Source of the DNA: an uncultured Candidatus Saccharibacteria bacterium
Lineage (GTDB): Bacteria; Patescibacteriota; Saccharimonadia; Saccharimonadales; AWTP1-31
Length of the DNA: 64,000 nt
NCBI GenBank assembly: GCA_937903325.1
Contig: CALCZR010000060.1
Location: 210,404 to 274,403, forward strand
Direction of reading: 5' to 3'
Within the stretch, counting starts at the first letter, position 1. Every line of letters starts with the position of its first letter. The notes beneath the pieces were generated by a model. That model had not been told where the DNA came from and did not search any database. It saw only the letters and a program-made list of their open reading frames with translations. The position numbers were made by a program, and so were the translations under genes. This document shows, piece by piece, positions 1 through 64,000 of the stretch.

Positions 1-1008
1 GGGCTAACTTCCAAAACAACCAGAAGAGTAATCGGCAAGCCTATTGGCTATAGCACTATTTACAGGATGTTTACCAACCCCTTTTACGCTGGAATGATCC
101 CCCACAACGGTGAACTGCACAAAGGTAATCACGATGCCATGATTTCACTAGAACAATTCGATCTCGCCCAGAAACTCCTAGGCCAAAAAGGTAAGCCACG
201 ATCTGGGATAAATCCTTATGCCTATGCTGGTCTAATAAAGTGTGGTGAGTGTGGCTGTCAGATAGTTGGCAAAACCAATCAGAAATATAATAAAACCGAA
301 GGTAGAGTTAAGACATACGTTCACTACTACTGCACTAGAAAGAGCCTTCTCCGTCCATGCACTCAAAGCAAGTACACATCCCTGGAAGCATTAGAATTAG
401 AGATTGACCATGTACTTGATAAGGTCACGATTTTGCCAGAGTTTAAAGAACTAGCGCTTGATATTCTTCGCCGAAAACATGCTACCGAAACAAAGGAGAG
501 AACTTCTACTTATAATTCTCAATTTGTAGATCGTAAAAGAATCCAGGATCAATTAGACAAGCTTGTAGATATGCGTACAAACGATCTATTAACCGACGAA
601 GAGTATTCCAGTCAGAAAAAGCGTTATAACCAAGAACTTAATGAGCTGGATGGTGATTTAAGACAAACTGAAGTAAGGGCTAACAATTGGATACAGGCTG
701 CTGAGCAAGCATTTGAATTTATCACCAACGCCAAAGAAACATTCAAGAATGGTAGTCCTGAAGATAGACGAAGAGTATTCATGGGATTAGGTCAGAACTT
801 TACACTTAAAGATCAGAAATTAGACGTAGAACTTCGTGAGTGGCTAGTGCCAATCGCTAATAACTACCAAGATCTTGAACAAACATATTTAGACAGGGTG
901 CGAACAAAACAAAAAACTTCCTCTACTACTGTGAGTGAGGAAGCTTTTACATATGTTTCTGAAAACTGGAGGGCCAGGAGGGACTCGAACCCTCGACATT
1001 CTGCTTAA
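1..1008 (+). CDS. large serine recombinase, C-terminal part (5' end cut by window edge)
   Basis: Frame open from nt 1 (GLTSKTTRRVIGKPIGYSTIYRMFTNPFYAG). Recombinase-domain motif, zinc-ribbon CGECGC...YYCTR and a long coiled-coil tail. The last 14 codons are antisense to tRNA-Lys. Confidence 0.75.
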   Translation, partial: GLTSKTTRRVIGKPIGYSTIYRMFTNPFYAGMIPHNGELHKGNHDAMISLEQFDLAQKLLGQKGKPRSGINPYAYAGLIKCGECGCQIVGKTNQKYNKTEGRVKTYVHYYCTRKSLLRPCTQSKYTSLEALELEIDHVLDKVTILPEFKELALDILRRKHATETKERTSTYNSQFVDRKRIQDQLDKLVDMRTNDLLTDEEYSSQKKRYNQELNELDGDLRQTEVRANNWIQAAEQAFEFITNAKETFKNGSPEDRRRVFMGLGQNFTLKDQKLDVELREWLVPIANNYQDLEQTYLDRVRTKQKTSSTTVSEEAFTYVSENWRARRDSNPRHSA

Positions 1009-1043
1009 GAGGCAGACGCTCTAACCAGCTGAGCTACTGGCCC
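967..1043 (-). tRNA. tRNA-Lys (anticodon CTT), CCA encoded
   Basis: Hand-folded cloverleaf: GGGCCAG TA GCTC AGCTGGTTA GAGC G TCTGC CTCTTAA GCAGA ATGTC GAGGG TTCGAGT CCCTC CTGGCCC T CCA. Confidence 0.9.
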
Positions 1044-10396: not shown

Positions 10397-10978
10397 ATGC
10401 AACAACAGATCAACTCCATTGACGAGCTCATTGCACTAGTTAAAGAGAATCAACAATCAGCCGACCGTTTAGTTATTGGCATCTCTGGTTTTGGTGGCTC
10501 TGGTAAATCTACTTTATGCAATAAACTTAGTAGTCGATTTCCAACAGCAACGGTTATACATGTAGATGACTTTATTGAGACTAACGAAGACGGGGCACTG
10601 CCCGGCTACCCGCATGACTGGAATAAGTTCGAAGAGCTTACACTCAAGAGACTCAAGAGCGGCAACTCAGTGACCAGCAAGATCTATGACTGGCAAACTA
10701 ACAAACTTATCAACACTAAAACAACGGTATCACAGCTTATTCTCATAGATGGGCCGGCCACGCTTCTGCAGGAAAAGTACCGTCCATATATTGACCTTTC
10801 TATCTGGCTCGATGTACCTCATGAAGTCGCCACTGCCCGTGGTAAGAAGCGCGACAAAGAAGAGCAAGGTGTTGACCATGACGAACTCTGGGATACTGTA
10901 TGGGCCCCTCTAGAAGCTCAAGGATTCCAAGACAATCGTCCGGATAAGCAAGCAGATATTCTTTTCCCTAATCCTTAG
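10397..10978 (+). CDS. P-loop nucleoside kinase (uridine kinase/PRK family-like)
   Basis: Walker A GISGFGGSGKSTL, 193 aa. Confidence 0.5.
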   Translation: MQQQINSIDELIALVKENQQSADRLVIGISGFGGSGKSTLCNKLSSRFPTATVIHVDDFIETNEDGALPGYPHDWNKFEELTLKRLKSGNSVTSKIYDWQTNKLINTKTTVSQLILIDGPATLLQEKYRPYIDLSIWLDVPHEVATARGKKRDKEEQGVDHDELWDTVWAPLEAQGFQDNRPDKQADILFPNP

Positions 10979-12441: not shown

Positions 12442-13965
12442 ATGGCAAGTACTAACGAGAAAATCGGCAAACTTATTTACCAAATAAGGCAAGATCGTGG
12501 CTTAACTCAAGCCGCCTTCGCCAAGCAACTTGGCACTAGCCAATCAGCTGTAAACCGTATCGAACACGGCAAACAGAATCTCAGCCTTGAAACTCTTGGG
12601 CGCATCAGTGACGTCCTTAATAAGCCACTTATCCAAATTGGTGAAACTGGTGTGAACCTGAGAGTAGAAGGTGGCCACGAACTACACGGCGATATTACGC
12701 TCAAGAAAAGTAAGAATGCTGCTGTTGCCCTCCTTTGCGCTGCCTTGCTTAACCACGGTGTCACTCGCTTCAAAGCATTTCCTCGCATCGAGGAAGTAAA
12801 CCGCATTGTTGAAGTACTGGAGAGTATTGGCGTAAAGATTAAGTGGCTTCCTAATAACGACATTGAGATCCGTCGACCAGCAGAACTTAATCTTGGAGCC
12901 ATTAATGCCACAGCCGCTCGAAAGACTCGAAGCGTTCTCATGCTCCTCGGCCCCCTCATGCACGAACTCAAGTCCTTTAATATTCCATATGCCGGTGGTT
13001 GTAAGCTTGGCACTCGTACCGTTGAGCCCCACCTGCTAGCTCTGGAACAATTTGGCGTTGGTGTTGTAGCCCGAACCGGCCACTACGAAGTAGTTGTCGA
13101 CAAGAAATTGCCCGAAGACCATGTCGTACTATATGAAGCCGGCAACACAGTTACTAACAATGCCCTGATGGCTGCTGCTCGAAGTAGGGGTACAACCGTT
13201 ATCCATGGTGCCAGTGCTGACTATATGGTCCAGGACCTCTGTATGTTCCTAAAGCGCCTTGGGGTAAAGATCTCCGGTATTGGATCTTCCGTCTTAACCG
13301 TTGAAGGTGTTCCAACCATTAAGAAGAACATTACCTTTGAGCCGACTGAAGACCCCATTGAAGCCATGTTCTTTATTTCAGTTGCTATCACGACCAACTC
13401 GCATATTACGGTTAACCGTGTCCCTATTGACTGGATTGGCCTCGAGCTTTTCAAGCTCAAAGTCATGGGCCTCAACTACAAGACCTCCAAGCGCTATCGT
13501 GCTGCCAATGATGTAACGGATCTCGTAGATCTCGAGATTAACAAACACAACGGTAACCTTATTGCCCCACACGACAAACTCCACCCTAATCTGTGGCCCG
13601 GCATTAACCCCGACAACATTCCCTACTTTGTACCAATTGTCGCTACCGCTAAAGGTCGCACCCTTATCCATGACTGGATCTTCGAGAACCGTGCCATTTA
13701 CTATACTGAAATGACCAAGATTGGCGCCCAAGTAGAACTTGCCGACCCACATCGTGTCTACATACAAGGCCCGACTAAGTTCACCAAAGCTGACGTCGTT
13801 TGTCCACCGGCCCTCCGCCCCGCCAGTCTACTCCTTATCGGCATGCTTGCCGCAGAAGGAACCTCGATCCTGCGTAATGTCTACACTATTAACCGTGGCT
13901 ACGAAGATATAGCCGAACGACTAAATAGCCTCGGCGCCAAGATCACCGTTCTGCACGAACTGTAA
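12442..13965 (+). CDS. murA: XRE-type HTH domain fused to UDP-N-acetylglucosamine 1-carboxyvinyltransferase
   Basis: Residues 1-65 form an HTH (GLTQAAFAKQLGTSQSAVNRIEHGKQNLSLETL). The rest is MurA (KSKNAAVALLCAALL, catalytic Cys in PYAGGCKLGTR, C-terminal INRGYEDIAERL). Single uninterrupted 507-aa ORF. Confidence 0.85.
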   Translation: MASTNEKIGKLIYQIRQDRGLTQAAFAKQLGTSQSAVNRIEHGKQNLSLETLGRISDVLNKPLIQIGETGVNLRVEGGHELHGDITLKKSKNAAVALLCAALLNHGVTRFKAFPRIEEVNRIVEVLESIGVKIKWLPNNDIEIRRPAELNLGAINATAARKTRSVLMLLGPLMHELKSFNIPYAGGCKLGTRTVEPHLLALEQFGVGVVARTGHYEVVVDKKLPEDHVVLYEAGNTVTNNALMAAARSRGTTVIHGASADYMVQDLCMFLKRLGVKISGIGSSVLTVEGVPTIKKNITFEPTEDPIEAMFFISVAITTNSHITVNRVPIDWIGLELFKLKVMGLNYKTSKRYRAANDVTDLVDLEINKHNGNLIAPHDKLHPNLWPGINPDNIPYFVPIVATAKGRTLIHDWIFENRAIYYTEMTKIGAQVELADPHRVYIQGPTKFTKADVVCPPALRPASLLLIGMLAAEGTSILRNVYTINRGYEDIAERLNSLGAKITVLHEL

Positions 13966-16702: not shown

Positions 16703-19700
16703 ATGAACTTAATAACATCGAGTGCTCAAGTGCTCAAAAAGGCCTTTTATGGCTTAATAGCGATCGTTCTAATAATCGCCATTATGCCGCGGGGGATGGC
16801 GACCGCTGTCGGCCCTAACTTAATCAACAACCCATCGGTAGAAACCGCTGCTTCTGCAACTACTCCGACTGACTGGCTGAACAATGCCTGGGGCACCAAC
16901 AAAGCCACCTTTGAATACCTCAACACTGGTGCACGTACTGGCAGCCGTAGCGTCAAAACCACTCTTACCTCATACACCGATGGCGATGCCAAATGGTACT
17001 TCAAGCCCGTTGCCGTAGCCGCCAACACTAAGTACACTTACGCAACAAACTACAAATCCAACATTGCCAGTGAAGTAGTAGTACAGTTTACCAGCAGCAC
17101 TAACGTCGAGAGCTATCTATGGCTTAACTCTCCTGCCGCCTCTAGCTCGGCATGGAAAGCCGCTAGTTACGACTTCACTACTCCTGCCAACGTCAGTAAA
17201 GCAACCGTCTTCCATGTGATCGCCAAAGTTGGCTGGCTACAAGTTGATGACGTATCTCTTGGCACGACTGGTACAAGTAACCCTATTCTTGCGCCAACCG
17301 TCTCACTTACGGCACCAACCGCTAACACTACTGTTAAAGGTTCCGTAAATATAAGTGCCACTGCAGCAAGCTCAGGTTCAAGCGTTGCTGGTGTGCAGTT
17401 CAAAGTTAATGGTGCCAACGTTGGTAACGAAGTAACTGCAGCGCCTTATACCTATTCATGGGACACAACCAAAGTAACTAATGGTAGCTACAGTCTGACT
17501 GCTGTCGTCCGTAGCACTAATGGGCTCAGCACCACATCAACCGCGCGTACTGTGACTGTTAGTAACCCTATTGCGCCTACAGTATCTATTACCGCCCCGA
17601 TTGCTAATGCAAGTGTTGCTGGTATAACTACTATTAAGGCAACTGCTGCAAGCAGTGGATCCACCGTAGCCGGCGTACAGTTTAAAGTTAACGGTACTAA
17701 TGCAGGAGCTGAAGATACTACTGTTGCTTACAGCTACAATTGGGATACTACTAAAATTGCTAACGGCAGCTACCAGCTAACTGCTGTTGCCCGTAGTGCA
17801 AATGGCTTGACCACTACTTCCGTACCCGTGACCGTAGTAGTAAATAATCTAGTTCCGGTAGCTCCTACCGTTTCTATTACTGCACCAACTACAGGAACCG
17901 TCAGCAAGACTGTAGCTATTACTGCTACTGCTGCGAGCAGCGGATCAAGCGTTGCTGGTGTGCAGTTCAAGCTCGACGGCACAAACCTAGGCAGCGAAGA
18001 TGTAACTGCACCATATAGCCTCGCTTGGGATACGACGCAAATTGCTAACGGCAGCCACGCCCTAACTGCAGTTGTCCGTAGCGCTAATGGTCTAACCACC
18101 ACCAGCGCCGCAGTGACGGTAAATGTCAATAACGTAGTTGTTACGCCTCCAGTAGATACCGAGAACCTGATCGCCAACAACTCAGCCGAAACGACCGATC
18201 CAACTAACAACGCTCGCCCGCAAAACTGGCAGAGCAACGCATGGGGCACCAACACTCCAGTATTTACATACGCCACTTCTGGCCGCACTGGTAGTCGCAG
18301 TCTTACCGCTACTATAAACAGCTACACCGATGGAGATGCTAAATGGTTCTTCGACCCCGTAGCCGTAACTTCCGGTAAGACATACCTCTACCGCGACTAC
18401 TACAAGGCAACTGTTGCGAGTCGTGTCGTAGTGGCCTATATCGATGCGAGCGGCAACTACAGCTACCAAGAAATTGACGGCGCTGCAGCTGCAGCAGACT
18501 GGACCCTATACCAGGCAATCATTACCGTTCCTGCAACTGCTGTTAAAGTAACTGTCTTTCACCTGATCGACAAGGTTGGTAGCTTGAGCCTCGATGACTC
18601 ACTACTACAGGTATATGCGCCAAGTGGTACTACTGACGTAATCCCAAACAGTTCGTTTGAGACTGGTACAACTACCCCTACCGGCTGGACTGGTAATAGT
18701 TGGGGCAATAACACTGCTAACTTCCAGTACATTTCGGGCGATGGCTACACTGGATCTCGTAGCGCTAAAGTTACCGTCAGCAACTACGTCGATGGTGACG
18801 CTAAATGGTTCTTTGAACCTATCAAGACCCTGACACCTGGCAAACAATACCGCTTCAGTGTGAATTACAAGGGTAGTGCTCAGGCTCACCCAGTGGTCTA
18901 CTTCCAAAAAGCCGATGGTACTGAACAGTACTTTGGTATGCCAGTACCGTTTGCGGCTAGCACTACTACGTGGCAGAGTTACAGCGACACCTTTAGCGTA
19001 CCGACTGACGCTGTTTCTGCATCTGTGTTCATGTACATTGCGAGTAACGGTTGGCTACAAACTGACAACTACCAAATCAGCGACTACCACAGCAACGGCT
19101 TTAACCGTCCACTACTTACCCTAACCTTTGACGATGGACACGAAGATAACGCCACTACAGCTTTGCCTCTACTTAACCAGTACGGCTTCAAGACTACCCA
19201 GTGTTTTGCTACCACCTTCATCGAAGGAAACCCAACTGCCGTAGCAGACGTCCTTAAGTTCAAGAACAGCGGTCATGAGATCTGCTCACACACTGTTACC
19301 CATCCAATGCTTACCACCACCGATGATGCTACGCTCGACTACGAACTGAAACACTCCAAGGAGTACCTGGAGAGCATTACTGGGCAGCCAATCCTGAACT
19401 TCGCCACTCCATATGGCGACTACGACGCCCGCGTCAACGCTGCTATCCAGAAATACTACCAGGCACACCGTACCGTCGACGAAGGCTACAACAGCAAGGA
19501 CAACTTCAACCAATACCGCCTACGTGTACAGAACATTCTTGACACTACTTCAGCCAACCAAGTAGCTAGCTGGATTGCCCAAGCCCAGGCAGATAACACA
19601 TGGTTAGTCCTGGTGTACCACCGCGTTGCCAGCAACCCTGGTCCATATGACAGCTACACTACCGACTTTGCCCAGCAACTTGCTGCTATCCAGGCCAGCG

Positions 19701-43575: not shown

Positions 43576-43959
43576 ATGTCAAAGTACGAAGTAATTGTTA
43601 AGACGGATGTAAAAGATCGGCCCAAGGATCACGAAATATCAGCAGCCTTGATTCTGGCAAATTACTATTTTAAAACAGATGTTACTTTCTTGCGTCCTCA
43701 GACAAATCGCACGCCAGATATAGATGTAGACGGCACAAAGTGGGAGATAAAGAGTCCACTAGGCAATGGTAAAAAGACGATAGACAATAACTTTCGAATG
43801 GCTCGTAAACAATCACGTAACATTGTTATGGACTTGCGTCGTATTAAAATGCACCAAGCTAAAGCCAATGCTCGTATACGTTCCTTCCTGTCTACGCCCC
43901 ACCATTTTAAAAGGGTGATCGTTATTACTAAAAGTCAAAGGATCGTTGAAATCTTATAG
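43576..43959 (+). CDS. small PD-(D/E)XK-like protein (stand-alone toxin-type nuclease fold?)
   Basis: TPDIDVDGTKWEIKS matches PD...ExK, followed by NNFRMARKQSRNIVMDL. 127 aa in a low-GC stretch (one line hand-counted at 37 percent). Confidence 0.35.
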   Translation: MSKYEVIVKTDVKDRPKDHEISAALILANYYFKTDVTFLRPQTNRTPDIDVDGTKWEIKSPLGNGKKTIDNNFRMARKQSRNIVMDLRRIKMHQAKANARIRSFLSTPHHFKRVIVITKSQRIVEIL

Positions 43960-53704: not shown

Positions 53705-53781
53705 GGCGGCGTAGCTCAGCTGGTTAGAGCACAGGACTCATAAGCCTGGGGTCACAAGTTCAAGTCTTGTCGCCGCTACCA
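53705..53781 (+). tRNA. tRNA-Met (anticodon CAT), elongator-like, CCA encoded
   Basis: GGCGGCG TA GCTC AGCTGGTTA GAGC A CAGGA CTCATAA GCCTG GGGTC ACAAG TTCAAGT CTTGT CGCCGCT A CCA. Identity as Ile2 (lysidine) cannot be excluded. Confidence 0.8.
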
Positions 53782-61085: not shown

Positions 61086-61160
61086 CGCGGGGTAGAGCAG
61101 TGGCAGCTCGTGTGGCTCATAACCACAAGGTCGCAGGTTCGAGTCCTGCCCCCGCTACCA
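61086..61160 (+). tRNA. initiator-type tRNA-fMet (anticodon CAT), CCA encoded
   Basis: CGCGGGG TA GAGC AGTGGCA GCTC G TGTGG CTCATAA CCACA AGGTC GCAGG TTCGAGT CCTGC CCCCGCT A CCA. Unpaired C1xU72. Only two G:C pairs next to the anticodon loop. Confidence 0.8.
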
Positions 61161-61246
61161 AGTGAAAATAACAGAGGTGAGTCAACAAAACACGTTGGCT
61201 CACTTTTTATTTCGCCCCTGTTATTTAGGTTTCAGTCCTGCTTGGT
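61154..61246 (+). repeat. direct repeat copy 1 (last 7 nt of tRNA-fMet plus 86 nt downstream)
   Basis: 85/93 identical, ungapped, to 62974-63066 (offset 1820 nt). Confidence 0.9.
61177..61210 (+). terminator. rho-independent terminator after tRNA-fMet (inside repeat copy 1)
   Basis: GTGAGTCAAC-AAAACAC-GTTGGCTCAC followed by TTTTT. Confidence 0.75.
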
Positions 61247-61265
61247 GTTTGATATACTTCCAGTC

Positions 61266-62108
61266 ATGCAATCAAAACTTCCAAAACTTGCACTCGGAAC
61301 ATGGTTGATGGGCGGCACGAAAGAACCAGACCCTAACAATGATGACGAGAAAGATATTTCAGTTATTAGAACTGCTATCGACTCTGGTGTCACACTTATA
61401 GATACGGCCCAAAACTATGCTGACGGAAGATGTGAAGAATTGGTTGGCCAAGCAATTGCGAGTTATCCCAGAGAAAAGGTCCAGATACTAACAAAGCAAA
61501 AAAGGCTGAGCCTATCCTACGACGAGGTTATCCAAGGTTGCAAAGACAGCATGAAGCGTCTTGGAGTAGATTACCTCGACTATTTTGTTTGTCATGCCCC
61601 CAATCCCGACTTCGACCTTACAGACTTTTTTAAGGCCAGCAATCAGCTACACAAAGACGGTCTGATAAAGAATGTAGGTGTAAGCAACTTTGGCGTTAAG
61701 TCACTACGAATTGCGGTTGATACGTCTGATCTGCCGATAGCGCTTAACCAGGTGAGCTTTTCGATTAACGACGGCGACATTCTTACTTCTGGTGTGTACG
61801 ATTTTTGTCTTAAACACAACATACCGATTCAAGCCTACAGACCGCTAGTCGACATTAAGAAAGAGCAAGATAGCTACGATGCACTTGTAAATGTTGCAGA
61901 GAAGATGAAGCTAACCCCGCACCAAGTTCTAATTGCGTACCTAAACAGCTACGAAGGTGTTAATTTCACTACCAGGGCGAGTAGCCCCAAGCATTGGTCA
62001 GAAATAAGGGACGCCCTTAACATCAGCCTGGCGACATTCGACCTCGAGGCTCTCAAGCATGTACACCTGACTAAGCAAGGGTCATTTGGCCACTTCTTAG
62101 ACATGTAG
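61266..62108 (+). CDS. aldo/keto reductase
   Basis: LGTWLMGG, DTAQNYADGRCEELVG, TK, CHAPN (D-Y-K-H tetrad present). The track ORF's N-terminal extension runs through the tRNA and is rejected. Confidence 0.8.
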   Translation: MQSKLPKLALGTWLMGGTKEPDPNNDDEKDISVIRTAIDSGVTLIDTAQNYADGRCEELVGQAIASYPREKVQILTKQKRLSLSYDEVIQGCKDSMKRLGVDYLDYFVCHAPNPDFDLTDFFKASNQLHKDGLIKNVGVSNFGVKSLRIAVDTSDLPIALNQVSFSINDGDILTSGVYDFCLKHNIPIQAYRPLVDIKKEQDSYDALVNVAEKMKLTPHQVLIAYLNSYEGVNFTTRASSPKHWSEIRDALNISLATFDLEALKHVHLTKQGSFGHFLDM

Positions 62109-62144
62109 GCCCTAGTCCCCGTTGGTGTCTGTTAAGATGTAACT

Positions 62145-62867
62145 ATGAAAACAATTCTGGTCACAGGTTCAAGTCGAGGTATAGGCAAGGCCATTGCAGA
62201 GCTAGCTCACAAAAAAGGTTATAAAGTTATTGTGCATGGGCGCACAGATAGTGAAGAGTTAAAGAAAGTCCATGAGAGCCTAGATGGTTCAGCCAAAGCA
62301 GTCTTTGATGTCTCTGACAAAGAAGCTACACACGAGGCCATCAAAGGACTGGGTGACATTGACGTACTGGTTAATAATGCTGGCATAGCACGAAACTTCC
62401 TAAAAGACGTTTCTGAGATGGATGACGAGAAAGCATTGGAAGAATACAAAACCAACGTACTTGGCACTCTACACTGTATCCAAGCCGTAGTACCGTCAAT
62501 GCTTTCAAAAAAATCTGGAAGCATTATAAGTATTAGTTCAATTAAGGGCCAGTCAAACCTTGCGACAACAAGTACGCTTACTTTTGCAGCAACCAAAGCT
62601 GGCATTATCTCAATAACAAAAGCCTTGGCTAAAACCTATCCAGACATACGATTTAATACAGTTTCACCAGGCTACGTAGAGACAGACCAGGTCAACGACT
62701 GGAACGAAGAGACATTCAATAGAATAAATGACGGAACAATACTCGGCCGCATATCTAAGCCCGAAGAGATTGCCCCGCTTGTCTTGTTCCTTGCTTCCGA
62801 TGACGCTAGCTATATAACAGGCTCTGACTTCCTCGCTGACGGCGGCTACTCGATTAAAGGTAAGTAG
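62145..62867 (+). CDS. short-chain dehydrogenase/reductase with FxxxK in place of YxxxK
   Basis: TGSSRGIGKAIA, NNAG, SSIKG, then TFAATKAG (Phe codon TTT at 62583-62585). Confidence 0.75.
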   Translation: MKTILVTGSSRGIGKAIAELAHKKGYKVIVHGRTDSEELKKVHESLDGSAKAVFDVSDKEATHEAIKGLGDIDVLVNNAGIARNFLKDVSEMDDEKALEEYKTNVLGTLHCIQAVVPSMLSKKSGSIISISSIKGQSNLATTSTLTFAATKAGIISITKALAKTYPDIRFNTVSPGYVETDQVNDWNEETFNRINDGTILGRISKPEEIAPLVLFLASDDASYITGSDFLADGGYSIKGK

Positions 62868-62973
62868 GTTCTAGTCTGCTGCGGTAGAGTAGACTAAACC
62901 TGTTGCTTCCCTGTTCAACCGTAACCAACGAGCTAGCTCCGCAAGAATAAGGTTCCAATTCGAATGTCCTTGG

Positions 62974-63066
62974 GCTACCAATTGAAAATAACAGTGGTGA
63001 GTCAACAATATATGTTGGCTCACTTTTTATTTCGCCCCTGTTATTTAAGTTCCAGTCCGGCTTGGT
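62974..63066 (+). repeat. direct repeat copy 2, preceded by a degenerate tRNA 3'-end-like remnant
   Basis: TTCGAATGTCCTTGGGCTACCA at 62959-62980 resembles T-loop-to-CCA, followed by 86 nt collinear with 61161-61246. Confidence 0.9.
62997..63030 (+). terminator. terminator hairpin copy inside repeat copy 2
   Basis: GTGAGTCAAC-AATATAT-GTTGGCTCAC followed by TTTTT. The stem is conserved and all differences lie in the loop. Confidence 0.6.
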
Positions 63067-63085
63067 CGGTGGTAGAATGCTTTCT

Positions 63086-63499
63086 ATGAGTTCAGAAACC
63101 CCTAAACTAGCCCTGGTCATTGATAACACCTTAGAAGTTGGACTTGCAGCCAATACAGCCGCCGTCCTTACGCTTTCCGTAGGAGCACAGCATCCTGAGC
63201 TAATTGGAGCTGACCTAACCGACGGAAGTGGCCAACCCCACATCGGAATTACAAATATCCCCATTCCTGTTTTGGGTACAGACAGTGCGACACTAACGAG
63301 CCTTGTGCAGAAACTTCAAGATAAAGGTGTCGAATTAGTGAGCTTTAGTAAAATAGCTCAGTCGATACACACTTACGATGAGTACGCCTCACGCCTAAAG
63401 GAAATGCCTGGCGAAAACATTGAATATAGTGGCATTGCTATCTTTGGCCCTGCTAAAGCAGTCAATAGCCTAGTAGGTAGTCTGCCAAGGTTGAAATAA
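63086..63499 (+). CDS. DUF2000 domain protein
   Basis: KLALVIDNTLEVGLAANTAAVL...DGSGQPHIGI...IAIFGP. Start at ATG 63086 or 63077. Confidence 0.6.
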   Translation: MSSETPKLALVIDNTLEVGLAANTAAVLTLSVGAQHPELIGADLTDGSGQPHIGITNIPIPVLGTDSATLTSLVQKLQDKGVELVSFSKIAQSIHTYDEYASRLKEMPGENIEYSGIAIFGPAKAVNSLVGSLPRLK

Positions 63500-64000
63500 T
63501 GCTTCCGTCTTTGGATAGTTCAGTCAGTACCCCCTTCCCTCACAAACTTCTAGGTAAGTGGACGGTTGTGGTGTTGGAAAAAGGGACTTGCTGCTACCGT
63601 GCGGGAGAAGCGTTTGCCACTTCTGCATTCAAAGAAAAACCTACCCTACTCCAAGCACCTAGTTTTGAAAAAGCCATGGAGCTAGCAGCTGCCGATAAAC
63701 ATATCCTTCTTTTGCCTCACATCCACAAACTTACAGGAGACGTGGAGACCAGCCACCAGTGGGAGTCTATGGGCGACTACATATTTAGACTCAACAACCC
63801 TCCACTTTACCTTGCCCGTAATTCCTCAGTAACAAATGGGCATTACGCTTCTATTGAGCGCCTTAGGGCACTAATAAACCCAAGTGACCACGGCATAAGC
63901 GACTGGGTTAATGTTGATAGCACCCAAGAAGCAGCTCGTGCATGCGCCAATGGCGACTCTGCGTTTTGCATAACCAATGAGTATGGAATTAAGTACCACG
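63499..64000 (+). CDS. hypothetical protein, 3' end beyond window
   Basis: Hand-translated frame stays open from the ATG at 63499 (TAATG overlap with the DUF2000 stop) to the window end: MLPSLDSSVSTPFPHKLLGKW... Not in the ORF track because it has no stop. Confidence 0.5.
   Translation, partial: MLPSLDSSVSTPFPHKLLGKWTVVVLEKGTCCYRAGEAFATSAFKEKPTLLQAPSFEKAMELAAADKHILLLPHIHKLTGDVETSHQWESMGDYIFRLNNPPLYLARNSSVTNGHYASIERLRALINPSDHGISDWVNVDSTQEAARACANGDSAFCITNEYGIKYH

What the first reader, a model, noticed from the sequence alone, without database searches (positions are those of the whole stretch)
61086..63066. 93-bp direct repeat starting in the tRNA-fMet 3' end brackets a two-gene AKR + SDR cassette
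Positions 61154-61246 cover the last 7 nt of tRNA-fMet, its terminator hairpin and the downstream leader. They recur at 62974-63066 with 85/93 identities and no gaps. In the hairpin all three differences fall in the loop, so the stem is preserved. Copy 2 is preceded by a degenerate T-loop-to-CCA-like remnant (TTCGAATGTCCTTGGGCTACCA). The 1.8 kb between the copies carries only an aldo/keto reductase and an SDR. This is the footprint expected from insertion at a tRNA 3' end (attL/attR-like duplication) or from a duplication-mediated capture. No integrase remains.
Basis: seen in the sequence. Interest (0 to 1): 0.6.

Follow-up and report, generated by a model that had tools for sequence, protein, structure and literature searches.

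The report
Gene-cassette array anchored at tRNA-fMet
The 93-bp repeat is real, but it is the start of a longer array of small swappable gene cassettes, each ending in the same 118-nt element, stacked behind the initiator tRNA gene of a Saccharibacteria (TM7) genome and joined at the tRNA's last seven bases by a recombinase that was not identified.

Summary
In detail: tRNA-Met(CAT) lies at 61086-61160, and 61154-61246 recurs at 62974-63066 with 85/93 identities. The attL/attR reading is too narrow. The same contig continues past the window (L001). There the repeat recurs behind each of at least five or six successive cassettes.

Each unit has three parts:
- a conserved 118-nt element that I call 'pre', which starts at the upstream stop codon;
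- the 7-nt core GCTACCA, identical to the tRNA-fMet 3' end;
- a leader module holding a terminator hairpin and an extended -10 promoter 6-7 nt before the ATG.

AKR and SDR are separate cassettes in other Saccharibacteria contigs. Cassette boundaries fall exactly at GCTACCA. Across 45 junctions, each main leader class is joined to two or three kinds of left partner, the true tRNA among them for most. At the same tRNA, relatives carry different cassettes. One relative has the tRNA followed by genes that here lie 7.6 kb further on.

'pre' is not a tRNA and not an attC-like hairpin. No recombinase lies within 10 kb. The best reading is serial site-specific insertion at the tRNA-fMet 3' end by a recombinase encoded elsewhere. 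This resembles integrons and tRNA-island accretion but fits neither family. I found no published description.

The parts
61086..61160 (+). tRNA-Met(CAT), initiator-like; the anchor of the array
   Evidence: ARAGORN; Rfam tRNA 63.8 bits; C1xU72 and A11:U24 read from the sequence; 100% identical in relatives L004, L005, L007 and L008
61154..61160 (+). Core 1, GCTACCA: the last 7 nt of the tRNA and the junction point
   Evidence: Repeat identity starts here; every junction in 45 examples lies directly after this heptamer
61161..61249 (+). Class-A leader module, copy 1. Terminator hairpin 61176-61203, T run 61204-61212, motif M (TTAGGTTTCAGTCCTGC) 61225-61241
   Evidence: nhmmer profile hit E 2e-27; fold -29.1 kcal/mol, z -4.2; motif M aligned with other cassettes
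61250..61258 (+). Extended -10 box TGATATACT, 7 nt before the AKR ATG (leaderless design; consensus only)
   Evidence: Read from the sequence; the same layout occurs in 16 of 28 cassette first ORFs against 7 of 51 background ORFs
61266..62108 (+). Aldo/keto reductase ORF (cassette gene)
   Evidence: Pfam PF00248, E 2e-49; a stand-alone cassette flanked by 'pre' on both sides in L078 and L085
62106..62144 (+). AKR|SDR junction: a single motif M (TAGGCCCTAGTCCCC, containing the AKR stop codon) plus extended -10 TGTTAAGAT (62130-62138). The 'pre'/core/hairpin unit is missing here
   Evidence: Alignments with L078/L085 and with the SDR cassette of L078
62145..62867 (+). Short-chain dehydrogenase ORF (cassette gene)
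   Evidence: Pfam PF13561/PF00106; a close homologue (about 80% nt identity in the aligned blocks) sits at another array position in L078, not next to the AKR
62865..62980 (+). 'pre': conserved 118-nt cassette-end element. It starts with the SDR stop codon (TAGGTTCTAGTC) and ends with core 2, GCTACCA (62974-62980)
   Evidence: nhmmer E 5e-38; 55 hits in related loci, all co-oriented within each locus; 26-copy alignment; no conserved fold; not a tRNA
62871..62981 (-). Antisense 36-codon micro-ORF inside 'pre' (L/M-VAQ.HSNWNLILAELxRW...; TTG start overlaps the core, TAG stop lies in motif M). Status uncertain
   Evidence: pN/pS 0.52 against about 1.0-1.3 in four of the other five frames (the antisense partner frame gives 0.55); 0 of 500 column permutations reach that value; only short ORF calls match it in the protein libraries
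62981..63069 (+). Class-A leader module, copy 2. Terminator hairpin 62996-63024, motif M 63045-63061
   Evidence: nhmmer E 9e-26; terminator scan; fold z -3.3
63070..63078 (+). Extended -10 box TGGTAGAAT, 7 nt before the DUF2000 ATG
   Evidence: Read from the sequence; layout statistics
63086..63499 (+). DUF2000 ORF, first gene of the next cassette
   Evidence: Pfam PF09391, E 1e-38; the cassette is closed by the next 'pre' at L001 11922-12040, which is beyond the window
63499..64000 (+). Start of a 189-aa ORF with no Pfam match, second gene of the DUF2000 cassette; it runs off the window end

Best explanation
The repeat marks the first two junctions of a cassette array anchored at the 3' end of the initiator tRNA gene of a Saccharibacteria genome.

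A cassette has three parts:
- a leader module, with an intrinsic-terminator hairpin, motif M and an extended -10 promoter 6-7 nt before the ATG;
- one to three ORFs;
- the 118-nt 'pre' element, which ends in GCTACCA.

Cassettes are joined head to tail exactly at GCTACCA, which is also the last 7 nt of tRNA-fMet. I infer that new cassettes enter by site-specific recombination. The partners would be the GCTACCA at the end of a free cassette and the GCTACCA of the tRNA or of another 'pre'. This regenerates the tRNA and pushes older cassettes outward, where they decay. The recombinase would be encoded elsewhere.

Shown: the array, the boundaries at the core, the reassortment of partners, the different cassette order in different genomes, and the absence of these cassettes from relatives.

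Inferred: a circular or free intermediate, the recombinase, the direction of growth, and promoter and terminator activity.
For: 1. Array. In the same contig (L001) 'pre' recurs at 10721, 11922, 12816, 13772, 16534 and, as a fragment, 18915. The class-A leader module follows the first four of these, a degenerate remnant of it (read by eye) follows the fifth, and the module also follows the tRNA itself. nhmmer scores fall with distance from the tRNA: 126, 130, 123, 59, 51, 20.
2. The same architecture is found in other Saccharibacteria contigs. L072 has 8 profile hits to 'pre' in 12.8 kb, L078 has 6, and L085 has 3 in 2.3 kb. All are co-oriented within each contig, and the ORF stop codon often overlaps the start of 'pre'.
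3. Boundaries. L078 and L085 are 100% identical from GGGCTACCA rightwards, but the two 'pre' copies to the left are only about 55% alike. The 172-aa kinase cassette of L072 and L078 loses similarity right after GGGCTACCAAG.
4. Reassortment. Across 45 junctions, each main right-hand class (A, A2, B, C, E) is joined to two or three kinds of left partner: the true tRNA-fMet, a tRNA-3'-end copy, or 'pre'. Class D proper is joined only to 'pre', with looser D-like leaders behind true tRNAs. The join is always directly after GCTACCA.
5. Shuffling. AKR and SDR are separate cassettes in L078 and L085. The 175-aa kinase cassette comes first after the tRNA in L070 but second in L093. The hyp242 family is first after the tRNA in L004, L008 and L010 but mid-array in L072.
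6. Anchor. Every array whose start is visible begins at tRNA-fMet: the window, L004, L008, L010, L070 and L098-L100.
7. Comparative. Relatives keep the upstream synteny but not the cassettes. L007 has homologues (76% and 87% aa identity) of L001 16761-18421 close behind the tRNA.
8. Hairpins fold strongly, and extended -10 boxes are enriched before cassette genes.
Against: No recombinase gene lies within 10 kb of the array here or in any related locus examined. No free, circular, phage- or plasmid-borne copy of pre-core was found. The segment shared between the tRNA and 'pre' is only 7-9 nt, which is short for classical tRNA-targeting integrases. No dyad symmetry is evident around the core. 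A second short repeat, motif M, also marks homology breakpoints, so more than one process reshapes the array. All the data are metagenome assemblies, and repeats can be misassembled. Against that, the same arrangement was assembled independently in three samples (L001, L002, L003).
Confidence: 0.62

Rival explanations
1. The repeats are portable terminator/promoter intergenic modules. Cassettes are exchanged by ordinary homologous recombination between them, for example after natural transformation, with no dedicated recombinase. The array would be a recombination hotspot like the neisserial intergenic mosaic elements.
For: No recombinase lies nearby. 'pre' copies share perfect tracts of about 20 nt, enough to seed homologous exchange. 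The AKR|SDR junction looks like a deletion between two copies of the 12-15-nt motif M. From my own knowledge, not tested here, Saccharibacteria are naturally competent.
Against: Breakpoints sit at a 7-9-nt core between partners that are otherwise unrelated or only about 55% alike. The true tRNA shares only GCTACCA(AG) with 'pre', yet it carries the same leader classes. Homologous exchange would scatter breakpoints along the conserved blocks of 'pre'.
Confidence: 0.2
2. One reading: a single AKR+SDR island inserted at the tRNA 3' end, with the two 93-bp copies acting as its attL and attR.
For: The repeat starts in the tRNA 3' end and brackets the two genes. Relatives lack those genes.
Against: The same unit recurs behind at least four further cassettes. 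AKR and SDR are separate cassettes elsewhere. DUF2000 is not chromosomal flank.
Confidence: 0.04
3. The array is the eroded remains of several large integrase-bearing elements (prophages or integrative elements) that piled up at the tRNA and lost most of their content. It would not be a system of small cassettes.
For: Short non-coding 'X' modules ending in 17-18 nt of the tRNA-fMet 3' end look like fused arm remnants. Large serine recombinase genes that overlap tRNA genes exist in this lineage: window 1-1008 with tRNA-Lys, L096, and L081 with tRNA-Glu.
Against: Cassettes are uniformly small and tightly packed, with the stop codon inside 'pre' and a promoter 6-7 nt before the ATG. They share one conserved end element and reappear intact in different contexts. 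No phage or integrase fragments lie between them.
Confidence: 0.1
4. 'pre' is itself a functional multicopy gene, either a small RNA or the 36-aa antisense peptide, and the cassette pattern is secondary.
For: The antisense frame has a coding-like substitution pattern: pN/pS 0.52, reached by 0 of 500 permutations. The start and stop codons are conserved.
Against: There is no conserved RNA structure and no Rfam hit. The sequence upstream of the micro-ORF differs between leader classes, so it has no common expression signal. This view does not explain the junction reassortment.
Confidence: 0.04

Closest known systems
Integron cassette arrays, especially chromosomal arrays and clusters of attC sites lacking an integrase (CALIN; Cury et al. 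2016, PMC4889954)
   Same: Both are co-oriented arrays of one- or few-gene cassettes. Each cassette ends in a recombination-site element directly after the stop codon. Site elements within an array are highly similar, as in chromosomal integrons. There is a fixed entry point, cassettes are reassorted between genomes, and the gene content is miscellaneous and mostly uncharacterised. As in CALIN, no integrase is nearby.
   Different: The site element does not fold into a hairpin and has no R/L boxes. The entry point is the 3' end of a tRNA gene rather than an attI next to intI. Cassettes appear to carry their own promoters. No IntI is present. [quoted passage not shown]
tRNA-anchored genomic islands built by serial integration, such as tycheposon islands of Prochlorococcus (bioRxiv 10.1101/2020.12.28.424599), and accretion of integrase-less cis-mobilisable elements (CIMEs) in streptococci (own knowledge)
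   Same: Insertion is at a tRNA 3' end and the tRNA is regenerated. Neighbouring elements are separated by partial tRNA copies. Newer insertions push older ones outward, and degenerate remnants lie further out. One of the tycheposon target tRNAs is a tRNA-Met(CAT).
   Different: Tycheposons carry their own tyrosine recombinase, and their attachment repeats are about 40 nt. Here the units are 0.7-2.7 kb with no recombinase. Only 7-9 nt are shared with the tRNA. A conserved 118-nt non-tRNA element accompanies every junction.
pdif (Xer-dependent) modules of Acinetobacter plasmids (own knowledge)
   Same: Both are small gene modules without their own recombinase, bounded by short conserved sites and found in many contexts. 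They are presumed to be moved by a recombinase encoded elsewhere.
   Different: pdif sites are 28-bp XerC/XerD dyads in alternating orientation. Here the sites are direct repeats without dyad symmetry and are tied to a tRNA end.
Neisserial intergenic mosaic elements (dRS3/RS repeats; own knowledge)
   Same: Both are intergenic mosaics of interchangeable modules separated by short conserved cores that also serve as integration targets.
   Different: The neisserial elements are not organised as a cassette array anchored at one tRNA gene, and the repeats are unrelated in sequence.

Membership tests
Integron / CALIN | attC sites: imperfect palindromes that fold as single strands into a bulged hairpin with R and L boxes | tested here: not met
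   RNAalifold on 26 copies predicts no pairs. Single-stranded DNA folds of both strands are no better than shuffles, z -0.9 to +0.6. No RYYYAAC/GTTRRRY ends are seen on reading the sequence.
Integron / CALIN | Integron integrase (IntI) next to the entry site, for a complete integron | tested here: not met
   No Phage_integrase-family hit appears among genes within 10 kb or among the window ORFs scanned, which is most but not all of the 64 kb. The only recombinase found is a large serine recombinase fragment at 1-1008.
Integron / CALIN | Co-oriented array of cassettes, each ORF followed by a site element; cassettes reassort | tested here: met
Integron / CALIN | Cassettes mostly promoterless and expressed from a common promoter | tested here: not met
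   An extended -10 box lies 6-7 nt before the ATG in 16 of 28 cassette first ORFs, and a terminator hairpin sits at each junction. This rests on consensus matches only; transcription was not measured.
tRNA-targeting integrative element / accreted island | Insertion in the 3' part of a tRNA gene with the gene regenerated | tested here: met
   The tRNA is intact. The junction lies directly after its last base in six independent contexts.
tRNA-targeting integrative element / accreted island | Direct repeats that are partial copies of the tRNA flank each element | tested here: inconclusive
   Only GCTACCA(AG), 7-9 nt, is shared between the tRNA and 'pre'. The X modules carry 17-18 nt of the tRNA end.
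tRNA-targeting integrative element / accreted island | Element-encoded integrase or recombinase | tested here: not met
   None is found in any cassette or within 10 kb.
tRNA-targeting integrative element / accreted island | Relatives carry the site without the element | tested here: met
   L004 to L010 keep HK-RR-(CutA)-Crp-tRNA but lack these cassettes. L007 places the distal genes next to the tRNA.
tRNA gene or pseudogene (for 'pre') | Cloverleaf detectable by tRNA models | tested here: not met
   ARAGORN finds nothing. Rfam tRNA gives no hit at E<=1. There is no conserved structure. Only loose similarity to a T-loop and acceptor end is seen by eye.
Intrinsic terminator (hairpin in the repeat) | G+C-rich stem-loop followed by a T run | tested here: met
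   Scan hit for copy 2. A 10-12-bp stem plus TTTTTATTT; z -3.3 to -4.2 in six copies. Function was not measured.
MITE / REP-type repeat | Terminal inverted repeats or a palindromic unit, dispersed through the genome | tested here: not met
   No inverted repeat bounds the unit. There are no copies elsewhere in the 64-kb window.
Xer/dif-type module | 28-bp site with two inverted binding arms around a 6-8-bp spacer | tested here: not met
   Reading the 45 junctions shows a conserved left side, variable right sides and no dyad. This is sequence inspection only.

The most novel reading that the evidence does not exclude
Saccharibacteria may have a dedicated gene-capture platform analogous to an integron but built differently. 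The 3' end of the initiator tRNA would serve as the entry site. A non-hairpin 118-nt element with a conserved antisense micro-ORF would serve as the cassette site. Cassettes would bring their own terminator and leaderless-type promoter. A recombinase of unknown family, encoded elsewhere in these roughly 1-Mb genomes, would move them.
Probability: 0.3. Interest if true: 0.85.

Novelty: new variant of a known kind. Interest (0 to 1): 0.68.

Why it matters
Saccharibacteria and other CPR bacteria have tiny, streamlined genomes, and how they gain accessory genes is poorly understood. A cassette array anchored at the initiator tRNA, with sharply defined junctions and reusable cassettes, would be a concrete and testable route of gene flux in this group. 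The cassettes seen here encode reductases, kinases, phosphatases, hydrolases, transporters, surface proteins and many unknowns. It would also broaden the idea of cassette arrays beyond IntI/attC integrons. The conserved 118-nt element gives a simple probe for collecting such cassettes from metagenomes. Profile searches already find about 70 diverged clusters of it.

Tried and rejected
- 'pre' as a tRNA, tRNA-like RNA or other known RNA: rejected.
- 'pre' as an attC hairpin: rejected.
- 'pre' peptide as the tail of a longer protein such as a recombinase. A word-index search found only three short ORFs. The profile search of 1.84 billion representatives found only short ORF calls plus a few unrelated repetitive proteins.
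- Phage or plasmid origin. IMG/VR pattern scans gave either chance-level 15-mer hits with no extended similarity or nothing. blastn against the phage and plasmid collections gave no match.
- Recombinase next to the arrays: none in L001, L070, L072, L078 or L097-L101. The L081 large serine recombinase lies 5 kb from two 'pre' copies but belongs to an element at tRNA-Glu.
- Literature searches for a description of such arrays in Saccharibacteria or Patescibacteria found none.
Full report
**Observation.** The window is part of a 162-kb Saccharibacteria (TM7) metagenome contig. The same contig was recovered as L001, and relatives found with the neighbouring Crp-like protein are all Saccharibacteria MAGs. 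ARAGORN and Rfam place a tRNA-Met(CAT) at 61086-61160. By direct reading it has initiator features: a C1xU72 mismatch and A11:U24. Positions 61154-61246 recur at 62974-63066 with 85/93 identities and no gaps. The hairpin GGTGAGTCAAC-N7-GTTGGCTCAC plus T run is kept in both copies, and all three differences lie in the loop. It folds far better than shuffles and scans as terminator-like. AKR (61266-62108), SDR (62145-62867) and DUF2000 (63086-63499) are confirmed by Pfam.

**The repeat is part of a longer array.** BLAST of the repeat and of the 113 nt that precede copy 2 against L001 shows that both recur just beyond the window end. The sequence and a profile search give a composite unit behind each successive gene group.
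- First comes a 118-nt element I call 'pre'. It begins with or directly after the upstream stop codon (TAGGTTCTAGTC...).
- 'pre' ends in ...GTTCCAATTCGAATGTACTTGGGCTACCA.

In L001, 'pre' lies at 10721 (window 62865), 11922, 12816, 13772 and 16534, with a fragment at 18915. It separates these groups: [AKR, SDR], [DUF2000, 189 aa], [48 aa, 134 aa], [219 aa], [820-aa beta-helix protein], [bPH_3/PNPOx, SDR, PNPOx]. Profile scores fall with distance from the tRNA (126, 130, 123, 59, 51, 20). Neither 'pre' nor the leader module occurs elsewhere in the 64-kb window.

**The same architecture elsewhere.** One metagenome scan with a 19-mer from 'pre' returned 28 stretches. About half of them carry real 'pre' copies by profile search. 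L072 has 8 hits in 12.8 kb, L078 has 6, and L085 has 3 in 2.3 kb. All are co-oriented within a contig. ORFs are mostly on the same strand, and their stop codon often overlaps the start of 'pre'. A profile of the antisense peptide finds about 70 diverged clusters in a 1.84-billion-protein library, so the element is widespread.

**Where cassettes begin and end.**
- L078 and L085 share a 100% identical AKR cassette. Identity starts exactly at GGGCTACCA, while the two 'pre' copies to the left are only about 55% alike.
- The 172-aa kinase cassette of L072 and L078 is 80-98% identical up to GGGCTACCAAG. Similarity drops to chance immediately after that point.
- A table of 45 junctions shows three kinds of left partner: the true tRNA-fMet, copies of its last 17-18 nt at the ends of short non-coding 'X' modules, and 'pre'. 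These combine with the main leader classes (A, A2, B, C, D, E), always directly after GCTACCA. Classes A, A2, B, C and E each have two or three kinds of left partner. Class D proper follows only 'pre', with looser D-like leaders behind true tRNAs.
- Class B is the native downstream flank of the tRNA in L004, L008 and L010. It also leads the AKR cassette in L078 and L085.

A cassette therefore runs from one GCTACCA to the next: leader, gene(s), 'pre'. The 93-bp repeat is the core plus the class-A leader.

**Shuffling and comparison with relatives.**
- AKR is flanked by 'pre' on both sides in L078 and L085. A close homologue of the SDR (about 80% nt identity) sits elsewhere in the L078 array.
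- In the window the two genes are fused at 62106-62144. That stretch holds a single copy of a short motif M (TTAGGTTCNAGTC) plus an extended -10 box. Motif M normally occurs both at the start of 'pre' and about 10 nt upstream of each cassette's extended -10 box. This looks like loss of one pre/core/hairpin unit between two M copies.
- The 175-aa kinase cassette comes first after the tRNA in L070 but second in L093.
- The 'hyp242' family is first in L004, L008 and L010 and mid-array in L072.
- All seven Saccharibacteria relatives keep HK-RR-Crp, with CutA detected only in the closest (L004), and five show the tRNA as well; the other two contigs stop at or just before it. None has AKR, SDR or DUF2000.
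- In L007 the tRNA is followed by one small ORF. Next come homologues (76% and 87% aa identity) of L001 16761-18421. About 7.6 kb of cassettes, including everything in the window after 61160, is therefore extra relative to that genome.
- Arrays whose start is visible always begin at tRNA-fMet. This includes L098-L100, which have different upstream genes.
- Contig L005 ends exactly at the tRNA, and L006 stops just short of where the tRNA would lie. That fits an assembly break at a variable locus.

**What 'pre' is not.** It is not a tRNA. It has no conserved secondary structure in 26 copies. It folds as single-stranded DNA no better than shuffles on either strand, so it is not an attC-type site. 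Its most conserved blocks are GTTCCAATTCGA and TTGGGCTACCA, separated by a variable hexamer. A short variant keeps only the 3' half.

Unexpectedly, the minus strand carries a 36-codon ORF. Its TTG or ATG start overlaps the core and its TAG stop lies in motif M. The frame has pN/pS 0.52, against about 1.0-1.3 in four of the other five frames (its antisense partner frame gives 0.55). None of 500 column permutations reached that value. No longer protein carries this peptide. Whether it is a real micro-protein or the relic of a gene end that once overlapped the site is unresolved. Large serine recombinase genes in this lineage do end inside tRNA genes: window 1-1008 with tRNA-Lys 967-1043, L096, and L081 with tRNA-Glu.

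**Expression signals (consensus only).** Every leader class has a strong hairpin with a T run 8-18 nt after the core. An extended -10 box ends 6-7 nt before the ATG in 16 of 28 cassette first ORFs, against 7 of 51 other ORFs in the window. This suggests leaderless transcripts and cassettes that are insulated from one another.

**Recombinase.** None is encoded within 10 kb of the array or in the related arrays. Among the window ORFs scanned, which is most but not all of the 64 kb, the only recombinase is the partial large serine recombinase at the far end. No phage, plasmid or IMG/VR sequence carries pre-core.

**Interpretation.** The fixed 7-nt junction, the free reassortment of otherwise unrelated partners, and the use of the true tRNA end as one partner point to site-specific recombination rather than homologous exchange. 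I put this at about 0.6. Homologous recombination between the repeats probably also acts, as the M-M deletion suggests, and is the main rival at about 0.2. The remainder is split among the erosion, single-island and multicopy-gene readings listed under the rival explanations. A single attL/attR island is contradicted by the extra copies.

The system works like an integron or CALIN array, and like accretion at a tRNA as in tycheposon islands (bioRxiv 10.1101/2020.12.28.424599). It fails defining features of both:
- no hairpin site and no IntI (integron definition from PMC4889954);
- no element-borne integrase;
- only 7-9 nt shared with the tRNA.

I found no description of it in the searchable literature. 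I classify it as a new variant of a known kind. There is roughly a 0.3 chance that it is a distinct gene-capture system with an unknown recombinase.

**Limits.** All sequences are metagenome assemblies. Promoter, terminator and recombination activity are inferred. The decline of repeat quality with distance from the tRNA is clear in L001 but is not monotonic in L072 or L078.

Noticed in passing
window 1-1008 (+) and 967-1043 (-): The C-terminal part of a large serine recombinase (Recombinase and Zn_ribbon_recom domains) runs in from the window start. Its last 14 codons overlap tRNA-Lys(CTT) in antisense. The same arrangement is seen in L096 (558-aa recombinase with tRNA-Lys) and L081 (545-aa recombinase with tRNA-Glu). 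Serine-recombinase elements in this lineage seem to target tRNA genes, with the recombinase gene's end lying inside the attachment site.
   Followed up: partly
window 62871-62981 (-); every full 'pre' copy in L001, L008, L072, L078 and others: A conserved antisense 36-codon ORF (M/L-VAQVHSNWNLILxELSRWLQLNRE.TGLVYSTAxD) has a coding-like substitution pattern (pN/pS 0.52; 0 of 500 permutations reach it). It has no homologue among longer proteins.
   Followed up: partly
L008 (minus strand) about 1651-1927 and 692-826; also L010, L070 11210-11519, L072 5981-6155, L085 187-351, L093 1298-1462: Non-coding 'X' modules of 130-310 nt are inserted at GCTACCA cores. Each starts with a terminator-like hairpin and ends in a copy of the last 17-18 nt of tRNA-fMet. 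They have no Rfam match. They may be arm remnants of another element family or miniature mobile modules.
   Followed up: partly
window 61247-61294 vs 63067-63114: Weak similarity continues past the 93 bp into the first codons. AKR starts MQSKLPKLAL and DUF2000 starts MSSETPKLAL, so they share PKLAL. This could be chance or a shared cassette 5' end.
   Followed up: no
window 43576-43956 (+): A stand-alone 127-aa protein carries a CdiA C-terminal toxin domain (PF18451, E 5e-18) in a Saccharibacteria genome.
   Followed up: no
window 12442-13962 (+): A 507-aa protein fuses an N-terminal Cro/C1-type HTH domain to an EPSP-synthase/MurA-type domain. This is an unusual combination.
   Followed up: no
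L005 (contig ends at the tRNA-fMet) and L006 (contig ends just before where the tRNA would lie): One related MAG contig stops exactly at the tRNA-fMet gene and another stops 135 nt before the Crp gene. This is consistent with assembly breaks caused by a repeated or strain-variable region downstream.
   Followed up: no
L010 (minus strand) about 239-580: Here 'pre' is split. Its first 35 nt or so and its middle part are separated by about 250 nt that encode a small ORF. This looks like an insertion into, or rearrangement of, the element.
   Followed up: no
window 53705-53781 (+): A second tRNA-Met(CAT) of 77 nt, presumably an elongator or tRNA-Ile2-type, has no repeats or cassettes downstream. 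The array is specific to the initiator-like copy.
   Followed up: partly
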